NCBI RefSeq assembly: GCF_037042905.1
Contig: NC_087250.1
Location: 24,988,001-25,052,000 of the forward strand
Source of the DNA: Lytechinus pictus
Taxonomy: Eukaryota
Length of the DNA stretch: 64,000 nucleotides
Reading direction: 5' to 3'
Below, piece by piece: positions 6,853 to 34,828 of the stretch (position 1 is its first letter; each line of letters begins with the position of its first letter). The translations under genes and the position numbers were made by a program. The notes under the pieces were generated by a model. That model was not told the origin of the DNA. It worked only from the letters and a program-made list of their open reading frames with translations, and did no database searches.

Positions 6853-7130
6853 TTAACCCTTGCTCAGGCATGGAATGCGATTCTTGAAAATCAACATAGG
6901 GCCTAAACATACTGCATAGTCTTTGCTGTAAGGATGTGCAATGTAGATTCGTAGAGCGGGCTGTGTGGGGTTTCTCATGAACAGAGGCTGTGATACTTCA
7001 CATATGAACTGAACTCCATGAATATCGCTTGAAGACAGAGCAAAGTACTGAAGATGACGCGTTGAGAAGGTAACCCTGCCTTCGGAGGTTTCGACAGATT
7101 TAGGAAGCAATGTCCTGTACCCGAATTCTC
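6853..7130 (-). CDS. ZU5 C-terminus / UPA-like start; last identifiable exon
   Basis: VTFSTRHLQYFALSS...LRIYIAHPY. It either ends at the stop at 6853 or splices at a gtatgt donor (exon end 6913) to exons I could not identify. Confidence 0.8.
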
Positions 7131-7308
7131 CTAGAATATGCAAAAGACAAGAAAATATTTAGTGTTAAAAATAAATTATCGTGTTGAGTCCAAATGTGAC
7201 TGCATATCAATATGAAGAGTTTCATATTAACACCCCCAAAGCAGACAAAAAATCAAACAAGAGAATTAATTCTTATTAGAAACGTATACTAACTAAATTT
7301 GATATTAC

Positions 7309-7653
7309 CTGGACCTATTTTGCTGTAAAGCTTTACACTCAAGTCTTTCTTCTTTTGCTTGTCTTGGTCTGGTGTGATGCAATGAGGAAGCACTGTAGTT
7401 GCCGATTTGAGAAGGTCATGGTTGAAGGAACACTGGATGATCGGTGTTATGAGAACCTCGCCAGCATCCAGGGGTAACTTGGATGAACTTCCTTTTAGGA
7501 CAGTGAGAGTAACAAGTGATCTCATTCCTTTGGGAATCGCTCCTGAAGGAATGGACACTCTGATGCCAATGTCATCTAGCTTCAGCTCTCCACCATCGTG
7601 ATCAATGATGCCATGTGTAAACGGAATAAAGAAACCCGGGTGATGTTGCATGG
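7309..7653 (-). CDS. ZU5 domain exon 2
   Basis: GIIDHDGGELKLDDIGIRVSIPSGAIPKG...ITPIIQC...LPHC is a classic ZU5; phase 1-1. Confidence 0.9.
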
Positions 7654-8292: not shown

Positions 8293-8541
8293 CTGTAGCT
8301 ATGTGTTCTGCAGCATCAGGAAAATTAAAAGCTTGAGCAATTTCAAGCAACCTCAGCCTTGTTCCTCCTTGTTTGACCCATCTCTGAAGCATTTGGAGAA
8401 TCACCCGACGTATCAAGGCAGGTTCAAAGGCCAAATACGATGACATCACCTGAAGAATTTCAGAAGCTGGTAGAACCAGCCGTTGGGTGAGGTCGATGAA
8501 GTCTGGAGTTGTACGAATCTTGGCAGAGATGTCACCAATAC
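8293..8541 (-). CDS. Death-fold domain 4 exon
   Basis: FIDLTQRLVLPASEILQV...VILQMLQRWVKQGGTRLRLLEIAQAFNFPDAAEHI; phase 1-1. Confidence 0.85.
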
Positions 8542-8752
8542 CTTTTTCATAGGGGAACATAATCACATAATAACCTAACGTTGAATGAGGACTCATGTTT
8601 CCCATATGCCAAAATATATACTAAAACATTTTTTTTGGTAATTTTAAATCATTTTGACCAGTTTCCATTCCAACGACATTATCTACAAAAAGCGTGTTAA
8701 AATCAATACCAGTAAAGGAGAATTATTATTAAAATGTAATTCGTTATCCAAC

Positions 8753-9046
8753 CTGTATAAGTATCTCCGATGTTGTATCCTTGAAGAAGCGCAGTCATCT
8801 TCTCTCCCTTTTCTTGTCTTCCTAAACGTTTACACCATTGATGAAGGAGTTTCCATGCTAGTCTCTCCATTAATGCAGGGTCGCGAGGAGCAATAAGACT
8901 TATGATGTCATTAACGTCCAAACGAAGAGCTTTAGCTACTTGTAAGGCCAACGTGACATTCGCTACTGGACGAACAACTGCACAAAGTTCTGAATTACCA
9001 GGTGAACCTCCATACTCGTCGAAGTCTCCAACAATTTCATCTTTGT
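8753..9046 (-). CDS. Death-fold domain 3 exon
   Basis: ALQVAKALRLDVNDIISL...LAWKLLHQWCKR...MTALLQGY; phase 1-1. Confidence 0.8.
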
Positions 9047-9445
9047 CTACGATTTAATAATAAATGTTGGCTTAACGTTTTAATAAAGATAACCTGTTAC
9101 ACCCTGCGTACACATAATTGATAACAACTTCATCTGAATTTTGTCTTCAGCATAAATGTTGCCGATAATTCAGGGTTTTAAGCTTCAGATATGTGCATCT
9201 TTATTATTACTATGACTCTTTTATTTTCCTACTAAGCCCATCCCCCCCCCACCACACCCCCCCCCCTCCATCCCTCACACCTCGATCAGTTTATACACCC
9301 ATAAGCGATCATTATTTTATCTATAACCCCCCCCCCCTGCGCTTTAGAAAAGTTCGCTAGGTAGATGGCGCATAATAAATACTGTATCTATAATTATTTA
9401 TTAATCACACCCTCTCTCTCCATCCATACCCTGCTTCATTCGTAC

Positions 9446-9586
9446 CTGACCCTAAGTATTCGATGATCTTCCAATCTTCATTGTCTTCCTTTTCATCTTG
9501 TGCTGGTTCTTGTTGTGGTGATGGGTCAGCATTCACTTCCGGGTCAAGAACAATCTCACCATCATCTTCATCTCTATTCTCATCAT
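9446..9586 (-). CDS. Acidic linker exon
   Basis: cag|DDENRDEDDGEIVLDPEVNADPSPQQEPAQDEKEDNEDWKIIEYLGS|gt; phase 1-1. Confidence 0.85.
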
Positions 9587-12055: not shown

Positions 12056-12315
12056 CATTCATGTCCGTAGCTTTTGAGGCCTCTTTCAACGATTTCCAGA
12101 CGGTCCTAAGTTTCTCATCCGGTTTATCTGATGATATCTGAGATGCTTTCCACATCGAGAGCATTTGGATGTTAGCATCTTTCCTATTGTACAGGGATCG
12201 ATGCTCGATGTGGTGCAATTCTATCTCGTCAAATCCAAGTTGAACCCCGATTTCATAGAACTTCTCTTTGCTGATATGACGGGCAACTTGTAACAGCGTT
12301 GTATCAGGAATCTCT
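12056..12315 (-). CDS. Death domain 2 exon
   Basis: EIPDTTLLQVARHISKEKFYEIGVQLGFDEIELHHIE...ANIQMLSMWK; paralogous to DD1; phase 2-1. Confidence 0.9.
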
Positions 12316-12591
12316 CTGTATCATTGGATTGAAATCATGAATTCACTATTGGTAATTTAAGCCATTATTATACATATCAACTTGAAACAAGTCAAGTAAC
12401 AACATTGATATTTTTTCATCATTACTGTAATTCAGAAGACATATTCAATATTCAAATGATTTACGTCCAATTTCCAATGTTTTGAATAGAGTAGAAAATA
12501 TTTTCCCTTACACATTATTTTCATATATTGCTGGCTTTTTTTTTCATTTGTCTATGATAACACGTAAACTATACATACTAAAGAAACTTAC

Positions 12592-12628
12592 TCGGTCGGG
12601 TCAATGTCTTGATGGGAGTAGACGATTC
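12592..12628 (-). CDS. Probable linker mini-exon with non-canonical (TCG) acceptor
   Basis: Polypyrimidine tract ...ctctcacctCG|GIVYSHQDIDPT(E)|gtaagt. Its phase 1-2 is what joins DD1 to DD2. Confidence 0.6.
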
Positions 12629-13234
12629 CGAGGTGAGAGCAATGTAAAGAAATGATTATGACAAAATAGATTTGTAGTAGAGAGAGAAAAAAAAAATCAA
12701 TGATAAACTTAATGATCACTGAACGATTGCTCTACATAATAATGCATGTTGATCATCCTACAAACCTAAATGATCTTAAAATACAAACGAGAAAGTGGAG
12801 AATCATGCAAATCAATTTACATGCAATATACAAGAGTTATGTAGTGCCCTTTTTAGAAATTGCCAAATACCCAAACTGTCCATTTTTCTTTTAATTCACA
12901 AAACAAAGATGAAACCATTATTTATTTTCAATTAGTAACAAGATGAAAAACAAGACTAAAACCATTTTTAAATCCACAAACAAAAATTAAATTCACTACT
13001 CTTTTTTTTGTGATAAAGGACTACAGAGATCAATGCCCGAAGCTACAAACTGATAAGAAATTGTCATATATCCGTACTGTCCATTTTCAAGCAATATTTG
13101 TGATTTTACAAACGAAGATGCAATTAGGTCATGAATCTGGAAGAATTCATTCTGAAACTAGTAACAAAAATAATTCTTATCCATCTTTGAACATACAACA
13201 TGTTACATATTTACAACAAACGCGAAACTCAAAC

Positions 13235-13521
13235 CTGGAAAGGTTGTATCATTTGATGATGAGTTATATGATTCCATAAATGTGATGAGAGTATTCTTTG
13301 CTGCTGGGGTAGATGATTGTCTCCCCCTCCATACCACCAACATGTCATAGGCGGCTTGCTGCCTGTCTCTGAATCTCCTGTACTCTACCCGATCCAACTC
13401 AGCTATGGTGAAACCAAGAGCTATGCCCAAATCATAGAACTGATTTACGTCCATTGTCTGAGCTATTGTTAGGATGTCTATGTCCGATTGTAGGTCACTG
13501 TTCTTCACTTTTTCTATTGTC
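13235..13521 (-). CDS. Death domain 1 exon
   Basis: DILTIAQTMDVNQFYDLGIALGFTIAELDRVE...QAAYDMLVVWRGRQ is a death-domain pattern; phase 2-1. Confidence 0.9.
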
Positions 13522-13920: not shown

Positions 13921-14521
13921 TCTTCATGGGGCGAGTCTACCACAATGGGCAACCTGAGCAACCAAGAGAGAATGCGACATGTTCCAGGTGTCTCCAGTGG
14001 GTCATCACTCGTCCAGGTGCATCGGAGAGCTGATATGCAGATACTGCAAGAAACCAGGGCACGTACAAAGTCAATGCCAGCAAAACGAGAAAGTGTCACG
14101 AAACGCCCGGGATACCGCAACAGTAATCCTTGATGTTGTCGATCAACCGAGATCAGTCTACATGGAGAAAGCAAAACATGTTGAAAAGAAACGCCAAGCA
14201 ACACTCGCGGACTTCCTGCGTCAACAACCTTCGCTCCCCATGAATGATCATCGTGAGAAAGCGTCCGTCGATACCGTTGCTACGTATGCATCCGACTCCG
14301 CAATTCAATATGTTGGCTCGCAAGCGGCAAGAAAGATACCGAAGAATAAGAAAAGTGAAAACAATCAAAGGTGCAATGATGGAAATAGCGCTGATGATGA
14401 AAGTGAAAGTGATCAATCCATCGTATCACCTGAAAGCCCACCAGTAGGGTCAACTGGCAACAAATCCACAGTAAAGCCTGTAAAGCGGAAGCAAAAAGCA
14501 AAGAAACCAAAACACAAGTAA
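13921..14521 (+). pseudogene. Tx1 ORF1 (gag-like) C-terminal remnant
   Basis: GRVYHNGQ...CSRCLQ/(frameshift)GHHSSRC...CRYCKKPGHVQSQC, then a low-complexity basic tail. Confidence 0.8.
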
Positions 14522-14570
14522 AGCTTGTTAATGATCAGATTGAAAATCAATGGAGTAACAAACTTGCACA

Positions 14571-17500
14571 GTGGATTCACCTATGCACTTTGTCTCGTTG
14601 AATGTTCGAGGAATAAGAAATAAACAAAAAAGAAATAAAATATGGTTATGGTTTAGACAACAAAAAGGTGATGTAATATTTCTTCAGGAAACTTTTTTGT
14701 CAAAGGATCTTGAAAAAACTATATATGCAGAATGGAATGGACCGTGTTATTTTAACCATGGCACCCATCATTCATGCGGAGTTGCTATACTTGTCCGAAA
14801 AAATGTAAACATAAATATTGTAAATGTTCACCACAAACACGATGGAAGAATTATTGCAGTACGTTTTATTATTGATGAAAATAAATACTTATGCCTCAAT
14901 GTATATGCACCAACAAAAAAGAACGAAAAGAACAAATTTTATAAAATGCTTCATGTTTGGTTAAAAGATGTAAAAGATGAAGATGATATAATTATTGCAG
15001 GTGGTGACTGGAATATAGTTCAGAATAAAAAGGTAGATACCTGTGGAATGTCATATACGCATTCAAAAAATGAAGTCTTTAATTTATTTCAGCAAAACAA
15101 TAATTTGAGTGATATTTGGAGACAATTTCATCCGTCAAAAAAACAGTTCACCTGGAGACAGATGTGTTTAGGTATCTTTTCACGTCTAGATTATTGGTTG
15201 ATAGCAAAACATTTAACTTGTAAGGTACACTCCACAGATATCAGGCCAGCATTCAAATGCGATCATAACGCTATTTCTCTTAAACTGAAAATGTGTAAAC
15301 AAAATAGGGGTAAAGGGTATTGGAAAATAAATAACTCTCTTCTAAATGATGAGAAGTACATAGCTGAGATAAAATGTGTTATACAGAAAGTAAAAGCAGA
15401 ATATTCATATTTAAATGATCAACTGAGATGGGAAATGTGTAAGATGAAAATTAAAGAATTAAGTATTAAATATTCTAAAGATAAACAAATTAGAAATAAA
15501 ATGTACTATTCCAAATTGGAAAAGGAATATACAGAAATTTGTGAGAAAATTGGTGTCAGTGCAAATGTACGAGATATTGAAGAGATGGAAAAAATAAAAT
15601 ATGAGTTAGATGCCTGGTATAAATATAAATGTAAAGGTGCGTTTGTGAGATCTAGGGATAAATGGCTAGAGCATGGTGAAACGTGCACGAAATATTTTTT
15701 ACAGTTGGAAAAAAGAAGAAGTGTTAAAAAAGAAATAAATTGTGTAGAAATTAAAGGTAAAATAGTACATGACGGTAAAAAAGTTTTAGAACATATATTA
15801 GATTATTATGAAAATCTGTATAAAGGGGATTGCAATCAAGATCAAGAGTTCGATGAATATTTTACAGGATTAAAATTAAACACTTTATCAGAAGAGCAAG
15901 CAAATTTATGTGAAGGTTTATTAACGGAAAGGGAGTGTTTTTATATACTCATGTCAATGAACACGAACAAAGCCCCAGGTAGCGATGGCCTGAGTGCAGA
16001 GTTTTACAGGTGCTTTTGGAATGATTTAAAAGATATGTTAATTAGTAGTTTAAATACTGGTTATGAGGAGAAAAAAATGTCATCCTCCCAAAGTCAAGCT
16101 GTTCTCACATTGTTATATAAAAAGGGTAATAAAGCTTTATTAGAAAATTGGAGACCAATATCACTCCTTAACATTGATTATAAAATAGCTGCAGGTGCAT
16201 TGGCAAAAAGAATGAAACAAATTATTCCGCATATTATTTCGGATGATCAATCGGGATTTAGGAAACATAGGTCGGCATTAGAGAATGTGCGACTTGTACA
16301 AGACGTTATTGACTATTTTAAAATGAATAATCAATCAGGTGTTATCATGTATATATATTTTCAAAAAGCGTTTGATAACGTTAGACACGATTTTCTGTTC
16401 ACTACTTTACGTAAGATGCAATTTAAAGAGCCATTTATTCATTGGATACAAACGTTTTACACAAATGCAAATGGTAATGTCTTGAACAATGGTTGGTTGT
16501 CACAAAAAAATTATTTTAATCGAGGTGTAAGGCAGGGATGCCCGTTGTCGGCTCTATTGTTCTTGGTAATTTCTGAAATATTAGCTCAAAAAATCAAACA
16601 AAATCCATTGATTAGAGGTATAGCTGTACCAACTAAAGAAATATCTCTAGCCCAGTACGCCGATGATACTATAGTATTCGCCAATGGAACAAATTCTGTA
16701 CAAAATATAATGACTGAGATTAATAGATTTGGAAATATAGCAGGGCCGAAAGTCAATTGGTCTAAATATAAAATAATGAAGTTAGATGAAAATATAGAGT
16801 TAAATGACCTAGAATGCACGGTCGATCCAGTAAAATGTCTTGGAATATATGTTGGTAAAAACCATGTTGATGTAGAAAAAAGAAATTGGGAAGGGAGACT
16901 TGGAAAAGTCGAAAATATACTTAATTTATGGAAAATGAGAAATCTGACTTACTTTGGAAAAATATCTGTCATTAAGATTTTAATAGCATCACAATTTGTT
17001 CATGTTGCTTCGGCAGTTCCTGTGCCCGATTATATTTCAAAGGCATTGAATAAAAAATTATATACATTTTTGTGGAATTCCAAAAAAAATAAAGTTAAGA
17101 GAAATGTATGTTTAAACAAAGAAATTGATGGTGGGTTAAACATGGTTGATATGAAAGCCAAATTTTCATCACTTCGATTAGCATGGATTTATAAATATAT
17201 GGATGAAATAAAGGGAGCATGGAAAACTCTTTTTACCTATTGGACAAATAAGATTGGTGGTTTTCCATTATGTTTACATTATAATTGTAATAGTGTAGAC
17301 ATTGTTAATTTAGGGAAAAGGTATAATCTACCCTCCTTTTATATCGATTTTCTATATGTTTGGGCAAATTTGAGATACCAAATTTTTTTTAAAATTACTG
17401 ATATTCCAAAACAAGTTTTTATGGAATAACAGTAATATAAAAATACAAAATGAAACACTAAATTTTAATAAATGGAGGAAATCTGGTGTATTGATGGTAA

Positions 17501-18340
17501 ATCATGTTATAAAAGAAGGTAAATGGAAAAACCTCAATACGGTATTTGATGATTTTGAAAACAGAAAATGATTATACAATTTTGAACTATATACAAAAGT
17601 TGAAGAAAGCATTTCCCAACACCTGGCTGGAAAATAGATCAAATGCACAACAAAAGGAAATAACGATTATATTTAATCTTATTGAAATATCAAATGGTGA
17701 TTTAATTGATGTAAATATCTTGAAAGCTAGGCATTATTATCATTATTATTTAGAACATAACAAAACAGAAGCATCTTTCTTTATGTTTTGGCAAAATTAT
17801 TTGGGACTTCAGATAGAAATTAATTGAGACAAAGTCCTGTATTTTAAACTTAGACAAATAAAAGATAACAAGGTTAGAGAATTTAATTTTAAGCTCCTGC
17901 ATAAAATACTTCCGTCCCAATCAAATTAATTTAAATGGGGTTTAAAAAATGATGATAAATGTAATCTTTGTTTACTTAAGGGAACAATTATGCATATGTT
18001 GATAAAATGTGAGAATATAAAACCTCTATGGAAAATGGCAGAAGACACAATTCTTTCTGTTTCTAAAGTACAGGTCTGTGTTAATGAAAATATAGTAATT
18101 TTAGGTTGGAATATACAAGAACCGAAATACTGGTTAATTAATATCATTTTGAATTTTACTCAATACACCATTTACAGAAATTATATTGAAACGAGTATGA
18201 AAAAAGGTTATTACTTTGTTAATGTAAATAGATTATGGATGAATTTGAAAATGAAACTGAGATGGTATTTAAGTTCAAAATATGTTACCAAAAATAAGAA
18301 TACAAAAGAAATTGACAAATTGCTGGAACTCATTTATTGA
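14571..18340 (+). pseudogene. Tx1/L1 ORF2 (APE endonuclease, reverse transcriptase, C-terminal Zn finger), frameshifted after ~17420
   Basis: SLNVRG, FLQET, GGDWN, SRLDY, DHN; KAPGSDG, NWRPISLLN, RQGCPLS, YADD. The expected LDF.KAFD reads IYFQKAFD. The C-terminus (LWNN, FKLLH, CNLC..H....C...W) is split across frames. Confidence 0.92.
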
Positions 18341-19090: not shown

Positions 19091-19253
19091 CTGTATATTT
19101 AATGACAAAGGCAATAGATCGTGATATCCCAAGCTTTCCAGCCTGTGTTATCGTTATGGTTATCACTGCAAAATTTACATCGTCTTCAATGTGCGGTACG
19201 TACAGCGATATACATTGGCTCATCTTTGCTTGAAGATCCCTAAGAGAAACAAT
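19091..19253 (-). CDS. UPA-like exon
   Basis: cag|IVSLRDLQAKMSQCISLYVPHIEDDVNFAVITITITQAGKLGISRSIAFVIKYT|gt; phase 0-1. Confidence 0.85.
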
Positions 19254-19422
19254 CTGTTTGGGGAAAAAAGAACGGCACAAGAATAGTGAAATACATAAAC
19301 TGCCAAGATCCCCCCCCCCCCTCAAAAAAGGTATTCTTTAACTTGCTTCGGAATTAGTTGTATGCTAACAAAGAGCCGGATTGCAAAGAGAACCCATGAA
19401 AGAGGTTATAAAGCTCGATTAC

Positions 19423-19551
19423 CTGGCTTTCAACTTCTACACCCTCACGATGGCATGTGATCGTGACGTCACCAGACCTTGTTTCAAAGCTGAATGGAAC
19501 CGAGGGATGGCATCTACGGCACGACTGTTGCCTCGAATCCTCTTGTATAAC
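19423..19551 (-). CDS. UPA-like exon
   Basis: tag|VIQEDSRQQSCRRCHPSVPFSFETRSGDVTITCHREGVEVESQ|gtaatc; phase 0-0. Confidence 0.85.
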
Positions 19552-19894
19552 CTACAAGGATTGATATATTCTATTTTTATTTATATTATTTTGTCCGCCA
19601 ATATACAGTTACATATTTTTTTTAATGTCTTTATTTCATGCAATCTTTTGACAAATTTATATAAGTATTTCAATGATGCATTTTTTCTAACCAAAATAAT
19701 CAATTAAAGTCCAAGAAATACTGTTCTACCTGCAAATATTCATCTTATGCGGGTGGAGATTGACAAATTTAAATAATTTCCTACCAAATGTGAAATTTAA
19801 CCGAAGATTGACAAAAGAATCATAACGTTTTCAAAGCAGTTGTGAAATGGTAAATGACCGAGAAGTATTCTGTAGCAATGTTGTTTATACGTAC

Positions 19895-20142
19895 CACTTC
19901 GTTTCCAGGAAGGTCATTATACAACTGAAGATTAACTGCAAACTCTTGTCCTCTTTCGATCCTGTCTGGGATGTATGGAGTACACATAACTTGCTGTCGG
20001 ATCACATGTTGTTCAAGAGGAATCAGAACCCACCACTCAGCACAGTGGTTGATGTACAGCTCAAGATGTCTCTTGTACAGTCTGCAGTATGGTGGTTTGT
20101 CTGTTGAGCTAGATGATTGCTTTCTTGAAGTTCTTGGTAGAT
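19895..20142 (-). CDS. ZU5 C-terminus / UPA-like exon
   Basis: ...RHLELYINHCAEWWVLIPLEQHVIRQQVMCTPYIPD...VNLQLYNDLPGNEV; phase 1-0. Confidence 0.85.
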
Positions 20143-20454
20143 CTTATTTACCAATCCCAAAAATATAAAAGATCGATTAAAATGGAATAAATCATGTCAG
20201 GACTTTCAAAGTTACATTAGAAAAAAAGTATTAGTAGACGCTGTAGAAGCTGCCGCCGGTGTTGGGGGTGTGCACGATTGCGATGCTAATGATGCACGAT
20301 AATGCTACTGTTGGTAATGATGATTGTAGAATGGGAAATGAGATATTTTTTTATAGATATAGGTTAGTACCAAAGTCATTTCAAGAAGGAAAAATCACAG
20401 TCATGAGTAAAGGTGTATTTTGTTTGACTCCCATCTCATTCTTTATGGACTTAC

Positions 20455-20796
20455 ACTTGATTGAGTCCCACACTCGGCAAACGATGTCTGGTTTCACCTG
20501 CTCTGGATTGACGACCAAGGAAGAGTGCGGGATAGTGATCTTAACGGGTTGGTTGAAGGACAAGGGTTGAGGGTCGCATTTGATTCCATAGCAAGCCATT
20601 GATTCATTTTTTGAGCTACCAACACCCGGATTGTCTCTTATGATGGTTAGGGTGATCTGACAAGAGTCGTCATGTGAAATGGCTCCTGTGGGAATGTACA
20701 TCGATACCCCATGGTCTTCTAACTTGATTTCTTGACTGGTATTACTTTTGACTTCTGCAGAAACCTCGACAGACTTGGATGGCCTATTAATGATTT
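20455..20796 (-). CDS. ZU5 domain exon 1
   Basis: EIKLEDHGVSMYIPTGAI...ITLTII...YGIKCDPQPLSFNQPVKITIPHS is the ZU5 signature; cag/gtaagt boundaries. Confidence 0.9.
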
Positions 20797-21370: not shown

Positions 21371-22696
21371 ATCCCAGTTGTGGGTCGGTTATTGGAGGTG
21401 CACACCAGTTTTAATCTGTTAGTATTTTTTTTCTCTCTTAATGATTTTTGTCACACCTTGTGTTATTATGCCAACTGATTTTTTTTCCCAGTAGACCGGC
21501 CAAACATAAAAAAGTGCTCTAGATAAGGATTCGACGGCAAAATTTGTTAATGCTTGGCATCCCAGCTAAAAGTCTTGCAAAAATATCCAGGAATAGCGTA
21601 CGGCCGGATGCCAAGCGCAATTTTGCGTAAAAGTGTCATTTTTAGCGTAAAATCTGAAAGAATGTCGAAAATCACGCATTTTGGTATTTTGACGGTTTAT
21701 CATCATATTTTTGATTATCTTTGATATAAAATTATTTTTATTTAGAGTTTCAAATTATAAGTCTCATAAACATGCATTTCAAATTTGAATATTACACACA
21801 CATATATAGCACAGTGAAACATAAAACCGCGATTTCCTCAAAATAAAAGTTTGTGAAAACTATCAATAGTTTGAAGTTTTTTACGCAACTTAAATTCCTC
21901 GATTTAAATGCGTTTATCCATCGAATGTATAGTAAATATCCTAATGCCACAAGAATGCCACAAGAATTTTCAAGTAAGATGGAAGATATCTCATTTTATG
22001 TTATCCGAAAGGAGACAATGTGCATTTTACTAGGTGCGCATTTTGAAAGAAAAATTGAAAATACCGTACATTATGTACATAATTACATGTATAAGTACAT
22101 ACTAAAGCGAGTATTTATTACATGTATAAGTACATACTAAAGCGAGTTTTTAATTGGATAGCACAATTTGTCAATTTTTTGCATCCCAGCTAAAAGTCTT
22201 GCGGAAATACTGAGGAATAACGTACGGACGGATGCCAAGTGCACTTTTGCGTGAAAGTATCATTTTAGCGTAAAATCTGAAAGACTGTCGAAAATCACGC
22301 ATTTTGACCTTTTGAAGGAATTTGTAAGAAATTTTGATTCCCTTTGATATGCGATCATTTATATTTGGAGTTTCAAATTATAAGTCAACTAAATATGCAT
22401 TTCAATTTGGAATATTACACAGACATATATGGCACTATGAAATATAAAATCGTGATTTTGTGAAAACTATCAATGGTATATTTGTGTTCCGCATCTCAAT
22501 TTCGTCTATTTTAGCGCTAACCAAATAAATACATAATAATTGTTGTCATGTCACATATAGTGAAAAAAATTGAAATAAGATGCAAGATATATAATTTTAT
22601 GTTATATATGCGAAAGATAACAATGTAGATTTATCGGATGCGCATTTCTGAAGAAAAAAAAACAGCGCACAATATTACATCTATATATTGCACATC

Positions 22697-22858
22697 AGGG
22701 GAGCGTTTCATGAAAGTACTTGTCGGACGTTTTATCCGACAAGTCCCATTTTATCCGACAGTTACCATAGTAACAGTACCTCTCAGCCAATCAACATCAG
22801 AGAAAGGTGTCAGATCTGACAACTTGTCGGATGAAAATGTTGATGAAACACTCCCCAG
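22697..22858. mobile_element. Small palindromic MITE
   Basis: ggggagcgtttcatgaa...tccgacaagt / acttgtcgga...tgatgaaacactcccc inverted ends. Confidence 0.65.
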
Positions 22859-23022
22859 GGGCCGCAGAACGGTTTTCAAAGTGGGGGGGGGGGGGGGCTG
22901 AGCCAAAAGTAGGGGCTGACCATTCAAAAAATCACAATCATATGGTCATTTTTACGTTTTTGTACACGATTTTTGAAAAAATCCCCCCAGCGACCCCCCC
23001 CCCCCCGCTTCCGCGGCCCCTG
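22856..23022. mobile_element. G/C-run MITE (caggggccgc...gcggcccctg)
   Basis: Terminal inverted repeats with poly-G and poly-C tracts. Confidence 0.65.
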
Positions 23023-25223: not shown

Positions 25224-25420
25224 GGCACGATAGCTCAATCGGTAGTGAGGGGGTTTCGGATTCCGGTGGCTTCGGTCCGATTCCCACTTGGTGCGCTAGT
25301 GCCAAGTAAGGCATTTAAATGCCTTACTAGTAATGGTAGTAAGGCATTTTAATCCTCATTATAGGTCCCTCGGAGAGTACCTTAAGCCATCGGTCCTCTG
25401 GTTGCTTGTTTAGAAGCATT
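25224..25420 (+). mobile_element. tRNA-derived SINE (degenerate)
   Basis: ggcacgatagctcaatcggtag A-box and ggtccgattccc B-box-like sequence. Confidence 0.55.
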
Positions 25421-27435
25421 CATGCTTTCTTAGCAAATGAGGTAAAATGAAAATCGTCAAATCATAAACAATAATCAGTATTAAATTATAGGATATGATG
25501 CCAGCGCGAAGCGTGAGCTGGAAATTTCGAATTAAACGAATGATTTTAAACATGTTTTTAATGTAGAAAAAGATGAATATCTTACTAAACAAAAACGTTA
25601 GCGCAAAAGCGCGAGCTAAAATTGGGAGAGACTATATAAGAGCTAAAAATTGGACATACAGTATGCACATATTTGATAATGGACTGGATGCGTATTTAAC
25701 TAAACAATGTGAGCGCGAACGGCGAGCTATTTTCTTCTAATTTTCTAAGAAGTTGACACTTCAAGCATGTTTTTTTTTAAACATGCAGATAGCAAGTTGT
25801 TTATCTCATTTATTAATGCAAGTGCGAAGATCGAGTCGAAAATTTATTTGGCATCTTTTTGTAATCCCGTGTAGGGTGCCTATCTCGCTAAACCAAAATA
25901 AAATATACACTCGAATCGCGAGCAGAATACTTTGGGTATATTATCTTGAAAACGGGATACTTTCAGCTCCGTGTAAACATTCCGGACACTACACATGACC
26001 TCAGGCAGCGGGGAGAGGGGGGGGGGGGGGGGCAGAGGCAGTTGCGGCCAGAAATTTTCACCCCCCCCCCCTCCCCGATAAATTGTGCATGTCCCCTTTC
26101 GGATAATAGATCTTCCATCTTATTTGAAAATTCTTTTAATATTTGTGACATTAGAAACGATCGATATTCAATAGATGAACCAATTTAAATCGAAGAATTT
26201 AAGTTGTAAAAAACTTTTATTTTGGGTAAATCACGATTTTTTTTAACGTCATATTGCCATATACATGTATGTGTGTGTACTATTCCAAATTAAAATGCAT
26301 ATTTAGTAGACTTATAATTTGAAACTCCAAATATAAATGATCGCATATCAAAGGGAGTTAAAATTTCTTACAAATCCCTTCAAAAGGTCAAAATGCGTGA
26401 CTTTCGACAGTCTTTCAGATTTTACGCTAAAAAAGATACTTTCACGCAAAAGGGCACTTGGCATTCGCCCGTACGTTATTCCTCAGTATTTCCGCAAGAC
26501 TTTTAGCTGGGATGCAAAAAATTGACAAATTGTGCTATCCAATCAAAAACTCGCTTTATTATGTACTTATACTTTGTTATTAAATACTCGCTTAAGTATC
26601 TACTTACATGTAATTATGTACATAATGTACGGTATTTTCAATTTTTCTTTCAAAATGCGCACCTGGTAAAATGCACATTGTCTCCTTTCGGATAACATAA
26701 AATGAGATATCTTCCATCTTACTTGAAAATTCTTTTAATATTTGTGGCATTAGGATATTTACTATACATTCGATGGATAAACGAATTGAAATCGAAGAGT
26801 TTAAGTTGCGTAAAAAACTTCAAACTATTGATAGTTTTCACAAACTTTTATTTTGAGGAAATCGCGGTTTTATGTTTCACTGTGCTATATATGTGTGTGC
26901 AATATTCAAATTTGAAATGCATGTTTATGAGACTTATAATTTGAAACTCCAAATAAAAATAATTTCATATCAAAGATAATCTAAAATATGATGATAATCC
27001 GTCAAAATATCAAAATGCGTGATTTTCGACATTCTTTCAGATTTTACGCTAAAAATGACACTTTCACGCAAAATTGCGCTTGGCATCTGGCCGTACGCTA
27101 TTTCTGGGTATTTTTGCAAAACTATTAGCTGGGATGCCAAGCATTAGCAAGCATTAACAAATTTTGCCGTCCAAAGTATAAAAAAATAGTTTTGGCCGGT
27201 CTACCGCCCTATAAATGTTTTGTATTATTATTATTGTATTGTGTCTACGTGTGAGTAGGAACAGTGGTCATTGGTGGCAACTACCAAACCATTGTTGGAA
27301 GGATATTTTTTTCTTAATTACCCTGATTGTAAGTTACGTTCCAATTAACACGATTAAAAGTTAAGAATTCTAAATAAATGATAATTTGTATTCAGAAGTG
27401 ACAATAAGGTGAACGATTCATGTTATGTTTCTTAC

Positions 27436-27470
27436 CTCTATTAGACTGTACATCATCCGATGAAGGTGAT
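27436..27470 (-). CDS. Linker mini-exon
   Basis: tttcag|..SPSSDDVQSNR..|gtaaga; phase 2-1 bridges the flanking exons exactly. Confidence 0.8.
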
Positions 27471-27650
27471 CTGAAAGTAATCACAAACCAAATTAACTAT
27501 ATTTGAAGTCCTTTTTTTTGTGTAATATACAGTATATGCCATCTTTTCTCTACCAGGTATGAAATGAAAACATTGGTACATCTACTGTGTCTCGGAGGTG
27601 AAGTAGAAATGACTGTTCTTGTTTGCACACTGAACTGCTCATTTGCACTC

Positions 27651-27971
27651 TAATAATAATGATAATAATAATAATATACAGTTCTTGTATAGCGCATATC
27701 ACATTATGAATAATGTCTCTATGACAGCGCTTCCAAAGGACTTGGATATTATTACCACAGCTGTAGCTTGGCGGCCGTAAGTACTCAGATTACAGCGCAC
27801 ACGCATTTCAAGGAATAAATTCCTGCCAGGTAACCATTCACCTCACCTGGGTCGAGTGCAGCACAATGTGGATGAATTACTTGCTGAAGGAAACTACAAC
27901 ATGGCTGGGATTTCAACCCACGACCCTCTGTTTCAAAGTCCGGAGACCAATCCACTGGGCCACAACGCTCC
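27651..27971 (-). mobile_element. tRNA-derived SINE with LINE-like 3' tail and (TAA)n
   Basis: Minus strand: ggagcgttgtggcccagtgg...gggttgaaatccc head, central gctgcactcgacccaggtg core, gcgctatacaagaactg(tat)n tail. Confidence 0.85.
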
Positions 27972-28199
27972 ACTAACCACCCTAAATGATGCAAGGTGCA
28001 CTTCCCCAAAAGAATGTAATTCTTCTCCCACTAATTTTACCATTGATAGTGCATAAATTAGCAGCAACCTCGAGAGTTGGAAACTTTACCCCTTGTCTGT
28101 TTCTTAGTTAGTGCACAGCATGGTGAATATTTTGTTTAGTACTGTCCATCAAGCTTATTCCCAACTTTTTCATTTACCAACAGTAGTTGAAATAATCAC

Positions 28200-28357
28200 C
28201 GTGACAATATCATCTGCCTAACTCGCTCATCTTTGGCATAGTGGATCGGTAGGTTGCCTGTCTCGTCCTGTACGTTTAGCTTGGCGCCATTCTCAATGAG
28301 ATAAAACACCAACGACTCATTTGGAGATAACCTGCCATTGTAGTACTCGTCGGATAT
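28200..28357 (-). CDS. Terminal (capping) ankyrin exon
   Basis: cag|ISDEYYNGRLSPNESLVFYLIENGAKLNVQDETGNLPIHYAKDERVRQMILS|gt; phase 0-2. Confidence 0.9.
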
Positions 28358-28845
28358 CTGAAAAAGAGAACAGCTTTCATTATTTACTTGAAAAGTACAA
28401 CCTGCTTTTACATGGGAATATTTTGTTTTAAGAAATGATTACGCTAGCCAATACGAATACATTTGCAGTGTCCCCTACAATCACTCAATTGGTTAGCTAT
28501 ATATATATATTATAATAATGTTAATATTCTGGGTCGTAAGTCTATAGACGCCCGTCGCTGTAATGAAATGATAAAATGTTTCAAAGCAATTAGTTTGTTC
28601 CATGGAAATGCATTATATTAACGTTAATGAAGGGATACTTTTCAGCAGAATGATCTTCTATCATTAAGCGAATTTAATTCAAAGCTACATGGTGAGTTGT
28701 AACCTTTGATATCTGGATTAAGACAAGTTTAAGCCAGTTTTACAACCTATATTTTGATCATTTATGATGTCTTCTAGAACACTTGTATAAGTCCTATCAA
28801 TATTGCAAACAATGTTATGGAGCCCCGTTCCTTTGAATAAATCAC

Positions 28846-29028
28846 CTCTCTGAGTGTATCAGTGTTTTGAACTATCACGTTGTTCTTGTAGCATAATCTG
28901 ATAGCTTTATGAAGACAGGTCTGGCCGTCAGAAGACTGCAAATTGAGATCACATCCATTGGATATTAACTTTTCGATGATAGCTGTATGGCCATGTATTA
29001 TAGCAAGATGGATGGGTGCTGTATCGTA
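28846..29028 (-). CDS. Ankyrin-repeat exon
   Basis: cag|YDTAPIHLAIIHGHTAIIEKLISNGCDLNLQSSDGQTCLHKAIRLCYKNNVIVQNTDTLRE|gt; 183 nt, phase 0-0. Confidence 0.9.
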
Positions 29029-29428
29029 CTGGATGGAAAGACAGATAATCTCCGTATAACTAAAGCAAAAACATTTTTGCGGGCTAATTTTCCATTGTCA
29101 CTGACCTGCCTACAGCTTTAACATTAATAAGCGTTAACATAGTGATGAATGGGCATTTCCAGTGTTCCATTTTTAGTTTCCATGGCATTTCTGATCATTT
29201 TGAAGGCTAAATACTAAGATAATCGTGTCTAGCCCATGTGTAATTTGTCCCGGCTCCTTTTGAAACTTAGCATCTTTGTCTTAAATGATGGTGGGTAAGT
29301 TATAATCTACAAAATAAAAAACACAATCCTTTATCGAATGTACATTACAGAAATAGTCCGAATATAAATATAGAAATAGAACAATAAAGGAAAATTAAAG
29401 TACAGTTCCTTCCAAGAAAATTAAGTAC

Positions 29429-32400
29429 CTTGGTATTCAACTTGTTTCGTGTTGCCTTATTCACCTCAGCTCCATCGCTGAGCAGATAGTCGGTGATATC
29501 AAGATGACCATGCATAACCGCAATGTGTAATGCAGTTGAACCAGTACCATCTCCTTTATTCACCTCAGCTCCTTTGCTAATCAGGTATTTAGTGATGTCA
29601 AGATGACTATTCTGTACAGCATTGTGTAATAGAGTCAGACCATCTTCTCTCGCTGCGTTCACTTCAGTGCCTTGACTAATGAAGTATGAAATGATATCAA
29701 GATGACCCTTCTCTGCAGCGCTGTGACATACAATATTAACGTCAGCTCCTTTGCTGATCAGATACTCCGTAACATCATAATGATGATGTTTAACTGCACA
29801 GTGCAAGGCGGTTAGTCCATCTATCCCAAACTTGTTCACCTCAGCGCCTTTACTTATAAGATGTTTAGTAACATCAAGATGGCCACCCTCAGCAGCGATG
29901 TGTAAAGCTGTCCATCCACCATCATTTCCCTTATTGACCTGAGCTCCTTCATTTAGTAGATATTTGGTGATATCGAGATGGCAATCCTTAGAAGCAAGGT
30001 GTAGTGCAGTTGAGCCATTATTAGTGTTATTATTCACCTCAGCTCCTTGACTAATCAAATATTTAGTGATGCCGAGATGACCATTCTGTACAGCACTGTG
30101 TAATAGAGTCCGACCATCTTCTCTTGCTGTGTTCACTTCAGCTCCTTGACTAATGAAGTAAGTAATGACATCAAGATGTCCCTTCTCAGCAGCAGTGTGA
30201 CATACAATATTAATGTCAGCTCCTTGACTCATCAGATACTTGAGTACATCAACGTGACGATTGTTAGCAGCAATGTGTAATGCAATCAAACCATCATTAT
30301 CTCTTTTATTTACCTCAGCCCCTTGACTGATCAGATACTTGATGACGTCGACGTGACCATTTCTAGCAGCACTGTGTAATGCAATCAAACCATCATTATC
30401 TCTTTTATTTACCTCAGCCCCTTGACTGATCAGATACTCGCTGACGTCGACGTGACCATTTTTAGCAGCACTGTGTAATGCAGTCCGACCATCTTCTCTT
30501 GCTGAATTTACTTCAGCTCCTTGACTTATGAAGTAAGTAATGACATCAAGATGGCCCTTCTCTGCAGCAGTATGACAAACAGAATTAACGTCAGCTCCTT
30601 TGCTGATCAGATACCCCGCGGTATCTTGATGATGATATTTAGCTGCACAGTGTAAGGCGGTGAGCCCGTCTATTCCGAACCTGTTCACCTCTGCTCCTTT
30701 GCTGATCAGGTATTTAGTAATATCAAGATGACCATTCTGTACAGCAGTGTGTAATACAGTCCGACCATCATTATCACCTTTATTAACCTCAGCTCCATGA
30801 CTGATCAGATATTTGATAACGTCAATAAGACCTTTGTCAACAGCTCTGTGTAATGCTGTAATTCCCTCATTATCCTCCTTATTTACCTCAGCCCCTTCAC
30901 TGATCAGATACTTGGCGACGTCAACATGACTTTTGTAAGCAGCACTGTGTAATGCAGTCTGACCATTATTATCTCCCTTATTAACCTCAGCTCCATGACT
31001 GATCAGATATTTGATGACGTTAATAAGACCTTTGTCAACAGCTCTGTGTAATGCTGTAATTCCCTCATTATCCTCCTTATTTACCTCAGCCCCTTCACTG
31101 ATCAGATACTTGGCGACGTCAACATGACCTTTGTAAGCAGCACTGTGTAATGCAGTCCAACCATCATCTCTTCCCTTATTAACCTCAGCCCCTTGACTGA
31201 TCAGATACTTGATGACGTCAACATGACCATTGTAAGCAGCACTGTGTAATGCAGTCAAACCATCATTATCTCCCTTATTAACCTCAGCTCCTTGACTGAT
31301 CAGATACTTGATGACGTCAACATGACCATTGCAAGCAGCACTGTGTAATGCAGTCCTACCATCATCTCTTCCCTTATTAACCTCAGCCCCTTGACTGATC
31401 AGATACTTGATGACGTCAACATGACCATTGTAAGCAGCACTGTGTAATGCAGTCAAACCATCATTATCTCCCTTATTAACCTCAGCTCCTTGACTGATCA
31501 GATACTTGATGACGTCAACATGACCATTGTAAGCAGCACTGTGTAATGCAGTCCTACCATCATCTCTTCCCGTATTAACCTCAGCTCCTTGACTGATCAG
31601 ATACTTGATGACGTCAACATGACCATTGTAAGCAGCACTGTATAATGCAGTCCAACCATTATTATCTCCCTTATTAACCTCAGCACCATGACTGATCAGA
31701 TACTTGATGACGTCAACATGACCATTGTAAGCAGCAATGTGTAATGCAGTCCAACCATTATTATCTCCCTTATTAACCTCAGCTCCTTGACTGATCAGAT
31801 ACTTGATGACGTCAACATGACCATTGCCAGCAGCACAGTATAATGCAGTCCAACCATTATTATCTCCCTTATTAACCTCAGCTCCTTGACTGATCAGATA
31901 CTTGATGACGTCAACATGACCATTGTCAACAGCACTGTATAATGCAGTCCAACCATTATTATCCTCCTTATTAACCTCAGCTCCTTGACTGATCAGATAC
32001 TTGATGATGTCAACATGACCATTGTAAGCAGCACTGTGTAATGCAGTCCAACCATCATTATCTCTCTTATTAACCTCAGCTCCTTGACTGATCAGATACT
32101 TGATGACGTCAACATGACCATTGTCAGCAGCACTGTATAGTGCAGTCCAACCATTATTATCTCCCTTATTAACCTCAGCACCATGACTGATCAGATACTT
32201 GATGACGTCAACATGACCATTGTCAACAGCACTGTATAATGCAGTCCAACCATTATTATCTCCCTTATTAACCTCAGCTCATTGACTGATCAGATACTTG
32301 ATGACGTCGACGTGACCATTTCTAGCAGCACTGTGTAATGCAATCAAACCATCATTATCTCTTTTATTTACCTCAGCCCCTTGACTGATCAGATACTCGC

Positions 32401-34828
32401 TGACGTCGACGTGACCATTTTTAGCAGCACTGTGTAATGCAGTCCGACCATCTTCTCTTGCTGAATTTACTTCAGCTCCTTGACTTATGAAGTAAGTAAT
32501 GACATCAAGATGGCCCTTCTCTGCAGCAGTATGACAAACAGAATTAACGTCAGCTCCTTTGCTGATCAGATACCCCGCGGTATCTTGATGATGATATTTA
32601 GCTGCACAGTGTAAGGCGGTGAGCCCGTCTATTCCGAACCTGTTCACCTCTGCTCCTTTGCTGATCAGGTATTTAGTAATATCAAGATGACCATTCTGTA
32701 CAGCGGTGTGTAATACAGTCCGACCATCATTATCACCTTTATTAACCTCAGCTCCATGACTGATTAGATATTTGATGACGTCAATAAGACCTTTGTCAAC
32801 AGCTCTGTGTAATGCTGTAATTCCCTCATTATCCTCCTTATTTACCTCAGCCCCTTCACTGATCAGATACTTGGCGACGTCAACATGACCTTTGTAAGCA
32901 GCACTGTGTAATGCAGTCCAACCATCATCTCTTCCCTTATTAACCTCAGCCCCTTGACTGATCAGATACTTGATGACGTCAACATGACCATTGTAAGCAG
33001 CACTGTGTAATGCAGTCAAACCATCATTATCTCCCTTATTAACCTCAGCTCCTTGACTGATCAGATACTTGATGACGTCAATATGACCATTGTTAGCAGC
33101 ACTGTGTAATGCAGTCTGACCATCATTACCTCCCTCATTAACCTCAGCTCCTTGACTGATCAGATACTTGGTGACGTCAACATGACCATTGTTAGCAGCA
33201 CTGTGTAATGCAGTCCAACCATTATTATCTCCCTTATTAACCTCAGCTCCTTGACTGATAAGATACTTGATGACGTCAACATGACCATTGTAAGCAGCAC
33301 TGTGTAATGCAGTCCAACCATCATATCTACCCTTATTAACCTCAGCTCCTTGACTGATCAGATACTTGATGACGTCAACATGACCATTCTTAGCAGCACT
33401 GTGTAATGCAGTCCGACCATCATTATCTTCCTTATTAACCTCAGCTCCTTGACTGATCAGATACTTGATGACGTCAACATGACCATTGTCAGCAGCACTG
33501 TGTAATGCAGTCCAACCATCATCTCTACCCTTATTAACCTCAGCTCCTTGACTGATCAGATACTTGGTGACGTCAACATGACCATTGTAAGCAGCACTAT
33601 GTAATGCAGTCCAACCATCATCTCTACCCTTATTAACCTCAGCTCCTTGACTGATCAGATACTTGATGACGTCAACATGACCATTGTCAGCAGCACTGTG
33701 TAATGCAGTCCAACCATCATCCCTACCCTTATTAACCTCAGCTCCTTGACTGATCAGATATTTGGTGACGTCAACATGACCATTGTCAGCAGCACTGTGT
33801 AATGCAGTCCAACCATCATATCTACCCTTATTAACCTCAGCTCCTTGACTGATCAGATACTTAACGACGTCAACATGACCTTTGTAAGCAGCACTATGTA
33901 ATGCAGTCCAACCATTATTAGCTCCCTTATTAACCTCAGCTCCTTGACTGATCAGATACTTGATGACGTCAACATGACCTTTGTAAGCAGCACTGTGTAA
34001 TGCAGTCCAACCATTATTATCTCCCTTATTAACCTCAGCTCCTTGACTGATCAGATACTTGATGATGTCAACATGACCATTCTTAGCAGCACTGTGTAAT
34101 GTAGTCCAACCATCATTATCTCCCTTATTAACCTCAGCTCCTTGACTGATCAGATACTTGATGACGTCAACATGACCATTGTAAGCAGCACTGCGTAATG
34201 CAGTCCAACCATCATCTCTACCCTTATTAACCTCAGCACCTTGACTGATCAGATACTTGGTGACGTCAATATGACCATTGTTAGCAGCACTGTGTAATGC
34301 AGTCCAACCATTATTATCTCCCTTATTAACATCAGCTCCTTGACTGATCAGATACTTGGTGACGTCAACATGACCTTTGTAAGCAGCACTGTGTAATGCA
34401 GTCCAACCATTATTATCTCCCTTATTAACCTCAGCTCCTTGACTGATCAGATACTTAACGACGTCAACATGACTATTCTCAGCAGCACTGTGCAATGCAG
34501 TCCAACCATCATTTCTCCCCTTATTAACCTCAGCTCCTTGACTGATCAGATACTTGATGACGTCAACATGACCATTCTTAGCAGCAATGTGTAATGCAGT
34601 CCAACCATAATCTCTCCCCTTATTAACCTCAGCTCCTTGACTGATCAGATACGTGATGACGTCAACACGACCATTCTTAGCAGCATTTAACAACACATTA
34701 CTCTCCTCAATATCTGTTCTAGCACTGCTGACATTTCCTGATATATTTTCCTGAGTGTTTCCCAATACATTTTGTGCAGATGTGTTTTCCATTCTGATTT
34801 CTGACTTTCGATACTGCTTCAGCAACAT
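29429..34828 (-). CDS. Giant ankyrin-repeat exon (~54 repeats, mostly 99 bp) with internal TGA at 32279-32281
   Basis: ORFs 32279-34828 and 29345-31456 are in the same frame. Consensus GxxxGWTALHSAAxxGHVDVIKYLISQGAEVNK. Donor AAG|gtactt at 29429, phase 0. Confidence 0.95.

What the first reader, a model, noticed from the sequence alone, without database searches (positions are those of the whole stretch)
31300..34690. Natural-DARPin-like array: near-identical 99-bp repeats vary mainly at ligand-binding positions
Seen: framework codons (TALHSAA..GHVDV.KYLISQGAEVNK) are nearly invariant even at silent sites. Substitutions cluster at the hairpin (D/R, N/D/Y, N/D, W/R/L/Q), the end of helix 1 (Y/K/D/N/E/C/G and N/K) and the last residue (G/E/R). 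Known: these correspond closely to the surface positions randomised in designed ankyrin repeat proteins. A similar pattern of high internal conservation with hypervariable sites is described for fungal NLR repeat domains. Inference: unequal crossover or gene conversion shuffles a small alphabet of binding modules and generates allelic (possibly somatic) recognition diversity.
Basis: partly seen in the sequence, partly recalled or inferred. Interest (0 to 1): 0.78.

Follow-up and report, generated by a model that had tools for sequence, protein, structure and literature searches.

The report
Fast-shuffling sea-urchin ankyrin sensor gene
A sea-urchin gene opens with about 54 near-identical ankyrin repeats that differ mostly at the residues such repeats use to grip other proteins and that are reshuffled between sister genes; the repeats are predicted to be spliced to cell-death signalling domains, so the family is likely a fast-diversifying intracellular immune sensor, although this copy carries a premature stop and neither expression nor function was tested.

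Summary
Window 29429-34828 (minus strand) is one 5.4-kb exon of about 54 ankyrin repeats. In the 29 uniform repeats inside the finding, 66 of 99 amino-acid differences fall on the 7 named sites. Diversity at the six DARPin-randomised positions is about three times silent diversity (codon model omega 2-3, P about 1e-4; 3 of 614 neutral simulations reach it), and 15 of 16 arrays first tested show an excess. A stricter count of distinct mutations gives omega 1.0 here, so positive selection is likely, not proven. Repeats are mosaics, and a sister gene 96-99% identical over most flanks has 98 repeats in another order. It is neither an NLR nor a canonical ankyrin. It evolves like fungal NLR repeat domains and PRDM9. 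Nothing supports somatic diversification; no RNA or population data were available. The scan already noted this pattern on paralogous DNA of the same genome.

The parts
29429..34828 (-). Single 5.4-kb exon encoding a short leader and about 54 ankyrin repeats; open frame except one TGA
   Evidence: Pfam Ank families; 10-unit model folds as an ankyrin solenoid, pLDDT 85
32837..34618 (-). Uniform core A, units 1-18, variable mainly at repeat positions 33, 1, 2, 3, 5, 13, 14 and 20
32264..32836 (-). Diverged block, units 19-24: an internal duplicate of units 39-44 (3 differences over units 19-23)
32279..32281 (-). In-frame TGA in unit 24 (codon 850 of the model), at the point where the unit switches from tail type to core type
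30878..32263 (-). Uniform core B, units 25-38
29456..30877 (-). Diverged C-terminal repeats (units 39-52 and last unit), shared almost letter for letter with the neighbouring paralogue (7 mismatches in 1450 nt)
28200..29028 (-). Two exons with further ankyrin repeats (28846-29028, about 28200-28357)
   Evidence: Pfam; tblastn; splice model
19091..20796 (-). ZU5 (two exons, 20455-20796 and 19895-20142) and UPA-like beta-sandwich (19423-19551, 19091-19253); no Phe-Ser autocleavage motif
   Evidence: Pfam ZU5 E=3e-12; low-confidence model matches UNC5b 3g5b; motif survey
12056..13521 (-). Death domains 1 and 2 (13235-13521, 12056-12315) with a 16-nt microexon between
   Evidence: Pfam Death E=1e-4 and 8e-4, both just under the curated cut-off; DD1 fold matches PIDD DD 2of5, Z 9.5
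8293..9586 (-). Acidic linker exon (9446-9586) and two further death-like helical exons (8753-9046, no Pfam hit; 8293-8541, weak Death hit)
   Evidence: the third unit is called death-like by inference only
6913..7653 (-). Second ZU5 (7309-7653, 6913-7130); the gene probably ends before the window start in a last death-domain exon (L020:7428-7757)
   Evidence: Pfam ZU5 E=9e-15; terminal Death E=0.036; linking exons not mapped
13958..18340 (+). LINE retrotransposon (zinc-knuckle ORF1; endonuclease-reverse transcriptase ORF2) in an intron, absent from the neighbouring paralogue

Best explanation
This is the variable repeat exon of a sea-urchin ankyrin-ZU5-UPA-death-domain gene family: its 99-bp repeats are mosaic and differ in number and order between sister genes, likely through germ-line unequal crossover and gene conversion, likely under selection for new residues on the binding face, and the intact family members likely act as cytosolic non-self sensors. 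Shown: one exon holds all uniform repeats; variation sits on positions 33, 1, 2, 3, 5, 10, 13 and 14; repeats are recombinant; close paralogues share flanks but not core repeats. Inferred: each array is a modular binding surface; binding or clustering on a microbial or foreign protein releases a UNC5-like ZU5-UPA-death-domain module, without self-cleavage, and the four to five death domains seed a PIDDosome-like complex that signals death or NF-kB. This particular copy is likely a null or truncated allele: a TGA at the junction of an internal duplication would end the protein after 849 residues, before every signalling domain.
For: Variation pattern: (14 of 16 arrays P<0.05). Excess over silent diversity: ratio 2.9 (bootstrap 1.55-6.03) in the 34-unit core and 3.37 in the 29-unit core, above 1 in 15 of 16 arrays, lower bound above 1 in 10 of 16; neutral concerted-evolution simulations reach 3.37 in 1 of 386 and 2 of 228 kept runs; codon model omega 2.1-3.0, P about 1e-4 here, above 1 in 12 of 13 arrays fitted and P<0.05 in 10 of 13. 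Mosaicism: four-gamete conflict 0.11 at <=10 nt and 0.40 at >=25 nt, P=0.001; P<0.05 in 11 of 16 arrays. Turnover: the neighbour has 98 scored units against 50, 16- and 11-unit block duplications, and none of the 28 core units 1-17 and 25-35 has an identical unit there, while most flanks are 96.6-99.4% identical. Architecture: 17 exons join in frame with GT-AG sites, and public models of relatives carry ANK, ZU5 and Death in one protein (P0001, P0039, P0108). Family: 26 arrays at 11 or more places, 14 to over 155 units, 4 of 26 with a stop or frameshift in the part read. Precedent: Dyrka 2014, PMC4986451 section 17.
Against: Counting distinct mutations instead of pairwise differences gives omega 1.0 here (17/15.5 against 23/21.1 sites, P=0.55) and 1.16 pooled (P=0.031; 1.14, P=0.062 without this clade). 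Tree-based omega is inflated by recombination, which is present. Arrays are not independent (several clades) and L008 shows no pattern. Position 20 on helix 2 is also under apparent positive selection here, and position 1 is fixed in DARPins. In 7 older, diverged arrays the ratio is only 0.89-1.49. The public model at this locus (P0002) starts after the ankyrin exons, so the splice to ZU5 is not shown for this copy. No NACHT, signal peptide-based or known effector link, no ligand and no expression data. The ZU5-UPA-DD model has mean pLDDT 48.
Confidence: 0.55

Rival explanations
1. Neutral turnover: a minisatellite-like coding array is homogenised by recombination; fold-critical residues are held by purifying selection and surface residues simply drift, so the DARPin-like pattern needs no selection for diversity and no receptor role.
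For: Distinct-mutation omega 1.0 at the surface and 0.38 in the framework; 4 of 26 arrays broken, including this one; surface positions are the tolerant ones in any ankyrin repeat (established knowledge); relaxed purifying selection is common in young repeats (PMC5120217, passages).
Against: Neutral simulations with whole-unit or 40-nt conversion give a median ratio of 0.8-0.9 and exceed 1 in only 36-41% of runs, against 15 of 16 arrays above 1 and 3.37 here; positions 5 and 13 stand out in both this gene and its neighbour; 22 of 26 arrays keep long open frames.
Confidence: 0.17
2. The binding face is under diversifying selection, but the partner is not a pathogen: a self-derived, fast-changing ligand (gamete or allorecognition factor, transposon protein, or another paralogue), or the protein is a scaffold that tunes death-domain signalling.
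For: All sequence evidence for selection applies equally; PRDM9 shows the same repeat dynamics in an intragenomic conflict (PMC5120217, passages); canonical ANK-ZU5-UPA-DD proteins are scaffolds (PMC5135030, passages).
Against: Death-domain tandems, tandem gene clusters with birth-and-death and a loose proximity to NACHT genes (6 of 11 clusters within 1.5 Mb, post hoc) fit sea-urchin innate immune families better (inference).
Confidence: 0.17
3. The internal duplication and the TGA are an assembly error (two haplotypes or misordered repeats joined at unit 24); the real allele is shorter and intact.
For: The TGA is the first differing base after the inferred junction; the two block copies differ at only 3 sites over units 19-23; no read support could be examined.
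Against: Similar block duplications occur without stops in the neighbour; 22 of 26 arrays up to 10 kb are frame-intact, so base accuracy is high; the array is 5.4 kb, short enough for long reads (inference).
Confidence: 0.12
4. Somatic shuffling of repeats in coelomocytes creates a clonal receptor repertoire.
For: Only the architecture: a single exon of 91% identical 99-bp units is a good substrate for mitotic recombination; somatic change is discussed for the sea-urchin Sp185/333 (Transformer) family (recalled; only the listing of PMC3342357 seen).
Against: No data; germ-line paralogue differences explain everything seen; no cassette or pseudogene donor layout or signal sequences were noticed around the array.
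Confidence: 0.05

Closest known systems
[quoted passage not shown] 2014, PMC4986451)
   Same: Repeats over 85% alike, concerted evolution, repeat-number change, positively selected sites on the inner helix and hairpin of the concave face (section 17 read).
   Different: No NACHT or NB-ARC here; repeats are N-terminal, 14 to over 155 units against 7 to over 16; effector end is ZU5-UPA and death domains; animal host; polymorphism among individuals shown there, untested here.
UNC5 / PIDD1 / ankyrin ZU5-UPA-death-domain module (PDB 3g5b, 2of5, 4d8o)
   Same: ZU5, UPA-like sandwich and death domain in that order; PIDD1 also has an N-terminal repeat domain (LRR; PMC3210808 passages).
   Different: Four death-like units then a second ZU5 and a probable last death domain; no Phe-Ser autocleavage motif as in PIDD1, CARD8 and NLRP1; a multigene, fast-changing family, not a conserved single gene.
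Canonical ankyrins (ANK1-3; PMC5135030)
   Same: N-terminal ankyrin repeats followed by ZU5, UPA and death domains; best PDB sequence hits.
   Different: Canonical: 24 conserved repeats and tandem ZU5-ZU5-UPA. Here about 54 homogenised repeats in one exon and a single ZU5 before UPA.
Designed ankyrin repeat proteins (DARPins)
   Same: Consensus-like framework with variation at positions 2, 3, 5, 13, 14, 33; best fold match 6mol, TM 0.76.
   Different: Natural, far longer, small polar or aromatic alphabet, extra variation at 1, 10 and 20.
PRDM9 zinc-finger minisatellite
   Same: Single coding minisatellite, homogenised framework, positive selection among repeats (mean dN/dS 2.7 in PMC5120217, passage).
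   Different: Binds DNA, single gene, meiotic role.

Membership tests
Ankyrin repeat | 33-residue helix-turn-helix-hairpin repeat | tested here: met
   Pfam Ank E=2e-165; model pLDDT 85 with paired helices every 33 residues, fold matches DARPins and ankyrins
High-internal-conservation repeat domain (fungal NLR type) | At least 85% identity among repeats over 100 or more residues | tested here: met
   29-unit core 83.8% aa mean pairwise, 91.4% nt; 99 differences from the majority in 29x33 residues is about 90% identity to consensus, and runs such as units 9-12 and 32-35 exceed 85%. Borderline on mean pairwise aa.
High-internal-conservation repeat domain (fungal NLR type) | Positive selection at concave-face positions | tested here: inconclusive
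   Met by diversity ratio, simulation and codon model; not met by the distinct-mutation count in this array
High-internal-conservation repeat domain (fungal NLR type) | Recombination among repeats | tested here: met
   Four-gamete conflict rises with distance, P=0.001; block duplications
High-internal-conservation repeat domain (fungal NLR type) | Repeat-number polymorphism among individuals | not testable with these tools
   Only contigs of public runs were offered; shown between paralogues only
NLR / STAND receptor | Central NACHT or NB-ARC domain | tested here: not met
   17 in-frame exons from the array to ZU5-2 leave no room for it and have no such Pfam hit; none of 73 NACHT matches in the genome lies in this gene (lower bound)
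Canonical ankyrin | 24 repeats followed by tandem ZU5-ZU5-UPA | tested here: not met
   About 54 repeats plus further ones; one ZU5 before UPA; definition from PMC5135030 passages
ZU5-UPA-DD module (UNC5/PIDD/ankyrin) | ZU5 followed by UPA sandwich and death domain | tested here: met
   ZU5 over Pfam cut-off; 3g5b is top Foldseek hit E=7e-4 and aligns to the UPA part at Z 8.7; DD Z 9.5 to 2of5. Model confidence is low (pLDDT 48), ZU5 part unresolved.
Autoproteolytic ZU5/FIIND (PIDD1, CARD8, NLRP1) | HFS or SFS motif with Ser nucleophile at the end of ZU5 | tested here: not met
   No Phe-Ser at the matching strand in 17 of 17 family proteins where the motif was found (18 examined) or in ZU5-2; register inferred, motif definition from PMC3210808 passages
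Innate immune receptor | Expression in immune cells, ligand binding, signalling | not testable with these tools
   No RNA run listed
Somatically diversified receptor | Different sequence in somatic cells and germ line of one animal | not testable with these tools
   No such data

The most novel reading that the evidence does not exclude
Sea urchins run a previously undescribed, NACHT-free class of cytosolic immune receptors: dozens of genes whose giant single-exon ankyrin arrays act as natural DARPin libraries, recombined in the germ line fast enough to give each animal its own binding repertoire and wired straight to a multi-death-domain signalling stalk; in the boldest form the shuffling also happens in coelomocytes (about 5%).
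Probability: 0.35. Interest if true: 0.85.

Novelty: new variant of a known kind. Interest (0 to 1): 0.57.

Why it matters
Homogenised repeats with a hypervariable binding face are documented as a diversity engine in fungal NLRs; highly conserved ANK/TPR/WD repeats make up only 0.8% of such repeats in metazoans (PMC4986451, passage). A multigene animal family that couples this engine to death domains without an NTPase would add a new sensor layout to invertebrate immunity, in a genetically tractable urchin, and is a natural counterpart of engineered DARPin libraries. Public annotation labels members 'ankyrin-3-like' or 'uncharacterized' and often splits or collapses them, so the family is easy to miss. 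The claim is directly testable by long-read amplicons. This copy itself is likely broken, and function is untested.

Tried and rejected
Expression and alleles: the look-up of sequencing runs listed 8 runs, no RNA holder, all as contigs. Laying 4 of the 8 on 9400-29390 showed contigs running through exon-intron borders and no exon-exon joint among the 15 joints shown (532 more not shown); uninformative on expression. One run covered the gene's exons 5-20 times deeper than two runs of the same study; the tool warns that contig depth is no copy number, so it was not used. Whether the TGA stands in other animals remains open. Exons linking ZU5-2 to the last death domain were sought by tblastn and comparison with the neighbour and not found with confidence. 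That the neighbouring gene is a falsely duplicated haplotype was rejected: its upstream DNA does not match (only 345- and 284-nt pieces within the 10 kb compared on each side), its ZU5 region is 86% identical and it lacks two intron insertions. Two stretches upstream of the large C8 ZU5 cluster (L033, L034) held no such repeats, so that cluster was not counted. Protein-level check in other urchins: pattern P<0.05 in 4 of the 5 public models with 6 or more uniform repeats; 6 of 11 had too few, weak because such models collapse repeats. ankAT-1 (PMC2976814) could not be read, so kinship with it is untested. Literature searches that found no description of this family: (open-licence papers only; subscription papers and supplements were not seen and could hold one). 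No complex was predicted: no candidate partner.
Full report
WHAT IS THERE. The finding lies on the minus strand inside one reading frame from 34837 to 29345 that is broken only by a TGA at 32279-32281. It holds 52 delimited ankyrin units (48 of 33 residues, 4 of 26), a leading partial unit and a last unit, and ends at a GT donor at 29429. Pfam and a single-sequence AlphaFold model of 10 units (pLDDT 85; best fold match the extended DARPin 6mol, TM 0.76) confirm the fold. A public protein 100% identical to the downstream ZU5 exons, on a contig of the same length as the window's contig, is labelled Lytechinus pictus, so this is a sea urchin.

OBSERVATION. I number repeat positions as in DARPins. 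The randomised set (2, 3, 5, 13, 14, 33) is recalled from Binz et al. 2003, which I did not see; the register was checked on the alignment to PDB 5le2, whose three modules differ at these positions and keep Asp at 1. That DARPins bind through randomised positions on the concave face is from PMC8229355 (passages). Of 33 full-length units in the finding, 29 form a uniform core; 4 diverged ones and one short one were left out. Framework silent diversity is 0.06, low but not nil. Positions 20 and 9 also vary.

SELECTION. Three measures were used, with the six DARPin positions fixed in advance. (a) Distinct mutations per site, robust to copy number but quick to saturate: the six positions carry more amino-acid changes than random sets (P=0.018 here; P<0.05 in 14 of 16 arrays), but against silent changes omega is 1.0 here and 1.16 pooled (P=0.031), framework 0.38 and 0.51. 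This is the result against positive selection. (b) Pairwise diversity with transition weighting: ratio 2.9 (bootstrap 1.55-6.03) for the 34-unit core of the whole exon and 3.37 for the 29 units in the finding; above 1 in 15 of 16 arrays, lower bound above 1 in 10. Three further uniform arrays gave 3.90, 2.78 and 2.34; seven old, diverged arrays gave 0.89-1.49. Simulated concerted evolution with neutral surface sites reached 3.37 in 1 of 386 kept runs (600 run) and 2 of 228 (300 run). (c) A two-class codon model on repeat trees: omega 2.13 and 3.0 for the two cores (P about 1e-4), above 1 in 12 of 13 arrays fitted (the three largest were not fitted), P<0.05 in 10; positions 5 and 13 stand out both here and in the neighbour, position 20 here as well. 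Recombination inflates (c), and paralogues are not independent. Pooled over 16 arrays the excess lies at 13, 5, 1, 3, 10, 2, then 33 and 14. Reading: surface variants are not more numerous than silent ones but reach higher frequency within arrays, as expected if selection keeps them while the framework is homogenised. Likely, not proven.

SHUFFLING. Four-gamete conflict between sites rises from 0.11 within 10 nt to 0.40 beyond 25 nt (P=0.001; P<0.05 in 11 of 16 arrays), and hairpin types combine freely with helix-end types: 25 distinct surface words in 34 units. The diverged block, units 19-24, recurs as 39-44 with 3 differences over units 19-23, so the array is a head-plus-block joined to a second core and tail. 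Unit 24 changes from tail type to core type between codons 18 and 28, and the TGA is codon 28: the stop sits on the inferred crossover. The next gene on the chromosome is a recent duplicate, 96.6-99.4% identical over most of its 3' half and 99.5% over the tail repeats (86% around ZU5), yet has 98 scored units in an intact frame with 16- and 11-unit block duplications; 10 of our 48 units match it exactly, all in or at the edge of the tail block, and none of core units 1-17 and 25-35 does.

THE GENE. Seventeen exons join in frame with GT-AG ends into a model of at least 2836 codons: ANK array, more ANK, ZU5, UPA-like, DD, DD, acidic linker, two death-like units, ZU5. A last death-domain exon lies just before the window; linking exons were not mapped. 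Death hits are weak by Pfam (E 1e-4 to 0.07) but DD1 matches PIDD and ankyrin-G death domains (Z 9.5, 9.3) and the UPA part matches UNC5b (Z 8.7; top Foldseek hit) in a low-confidence model. The Phe-Ser self-cleavage motif of PIDD1, CARD8 and NLRP1 (PMC3210808, passages) is absent in 17 of 17 family proteins where the site was found. The public model at this locus covers only ZU5-UPA-DD, but models of relatives in L. pictus, L. variegatus and S. purpuratus join ANK to ZU5, several also to Death. With the TGA the product would be 849 residues of ankyrin only, and the transcript a likely decay target (inference). A LINE absent from the neighbour sits in an intron.

FAMILY. Own-genome searches (lower bounds) and 35 fetched stretches gave 25 further arrays (27 stretches with repeats, 8 without), 14 to over 155 units each, on at least seven chromosomes, mostly in tandem clusters; 4 of 26, this one included, have a stop or frameshift in the part read. 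Most lie next to a ZU5 match; I did not model each gene.

MECHANISM. Shown: layout, mosaic repeats, turnover between paralogues, concentration of change on the binding face. Inferred: germ-line unequal crossover and conversion as the engine, diversifying selection, and a role as cytosolic sensor in which the ankyrin solenoid binds a foreign protein and frees or clusters the death domains. I put this at 0.55; neutral turnover 0.17; selection by a non-immune partner 0.17; somatic shuffling 0.05; and, as a separate matter, misassembly of the stop junction 0.12.

KNOWN SYSTEMS. It works like the highly conserved ANK repeats of fungal NLRs (PMC4986451: passages and section 17 read) and like PRDM9 (PMC5120217, passages); concerted evolution of metazoan repeats is rare and linked to host-parasite conflict (PMC5100051, passages). 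It is not an NLR (no NACHT) and not a canonical ankyrin (PMC5135030, passages). Marine-invertebrate expansions that combine death folds with ankyrins or UPA-ZU5 are noted for TRADD-N proteins (PMC8195603, passages), but the passages seen do not describe this family. PMC10855541 and PMC9356045 (passages) mention urchin ankyrins without it. PMC12222747, PMC13449251, PMC2873952 and PMC3342357 were seen as listings only. Seven searches found no description; subscription papers and supplements were not seen.

EARLIER SCAN NOTES. After my own reading was fixed, the scan's index showed seven notes on paralogues in this genome with the same reading, including the neighbour. They are not independent support; one gave the lead to the last death domain.

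VERDICT. Real feature, new variant of a known kind, interest 0.57: a clear diversity-generating signature in an apparently undescribed animal family, but no expression, population or functional data, and this copy is likely broken.

Noticed in passing
window 32279-32281: The nonsense codon lies within about 30 nt of the inferred unequal-crossover point, which may mean error-prone recombination, chance or misassembly.
   Followed up: partly
L017+L016 (G000:C6:24943000-24953050): Neighbouring paralogue with 98 scored repeats in one intact 9.9-kb frame; best candidate for functional work.
   Followed up: yes
L025+L026 (G000:C6:18147000-18163000 and beyond): Array of more than 155 repeats, over 15 kb, with one frameshift and one stop.
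   Followed up: partly
L028 (G000:C6:6064500-6068900): Array built from a three-repeat higher-order unit instead of a single repeat; L007 has a four-repeat period.
   Followed up: no
window 13958-18340 (+): Near-complete LINE with zinc-knuckle ORF1 and endonuclease-RT ORF2, inserted after the duplication from the neighbour; a second insertion at about 9912-11790.
   Followed up: partly
G000:C8:39.9-42.3 Mb and C37: About 30 further ZU5 matches (30-37% identity) in a regular tandem cluster; two upstream stretches held no ankyrin array, so probably another expanded ZU5 family.
   Followed up: partly
genome-wide: ANK-ZU5 clusters lie near NACHT genes more often than uniform chance (6 of 11 within 1.5 Mb, P=0.0008; 2 of 11 within 0.5 Mb, P=0.09); thresholds post hoc, both families favour duplication-prone regions.
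   Followed up: partly
window 12592-12607 and 27436-27470: Predicted 16-nt and 35-nt microexons needed to keep the frame; matched by paralogue protein models.
   Followed up: partly
window 50724-52619 and 61010-61871: Non-coding 150-bp and 360-bp tandem arrays built on a palindromic AACCATGGTT motif.
   Followed up: no
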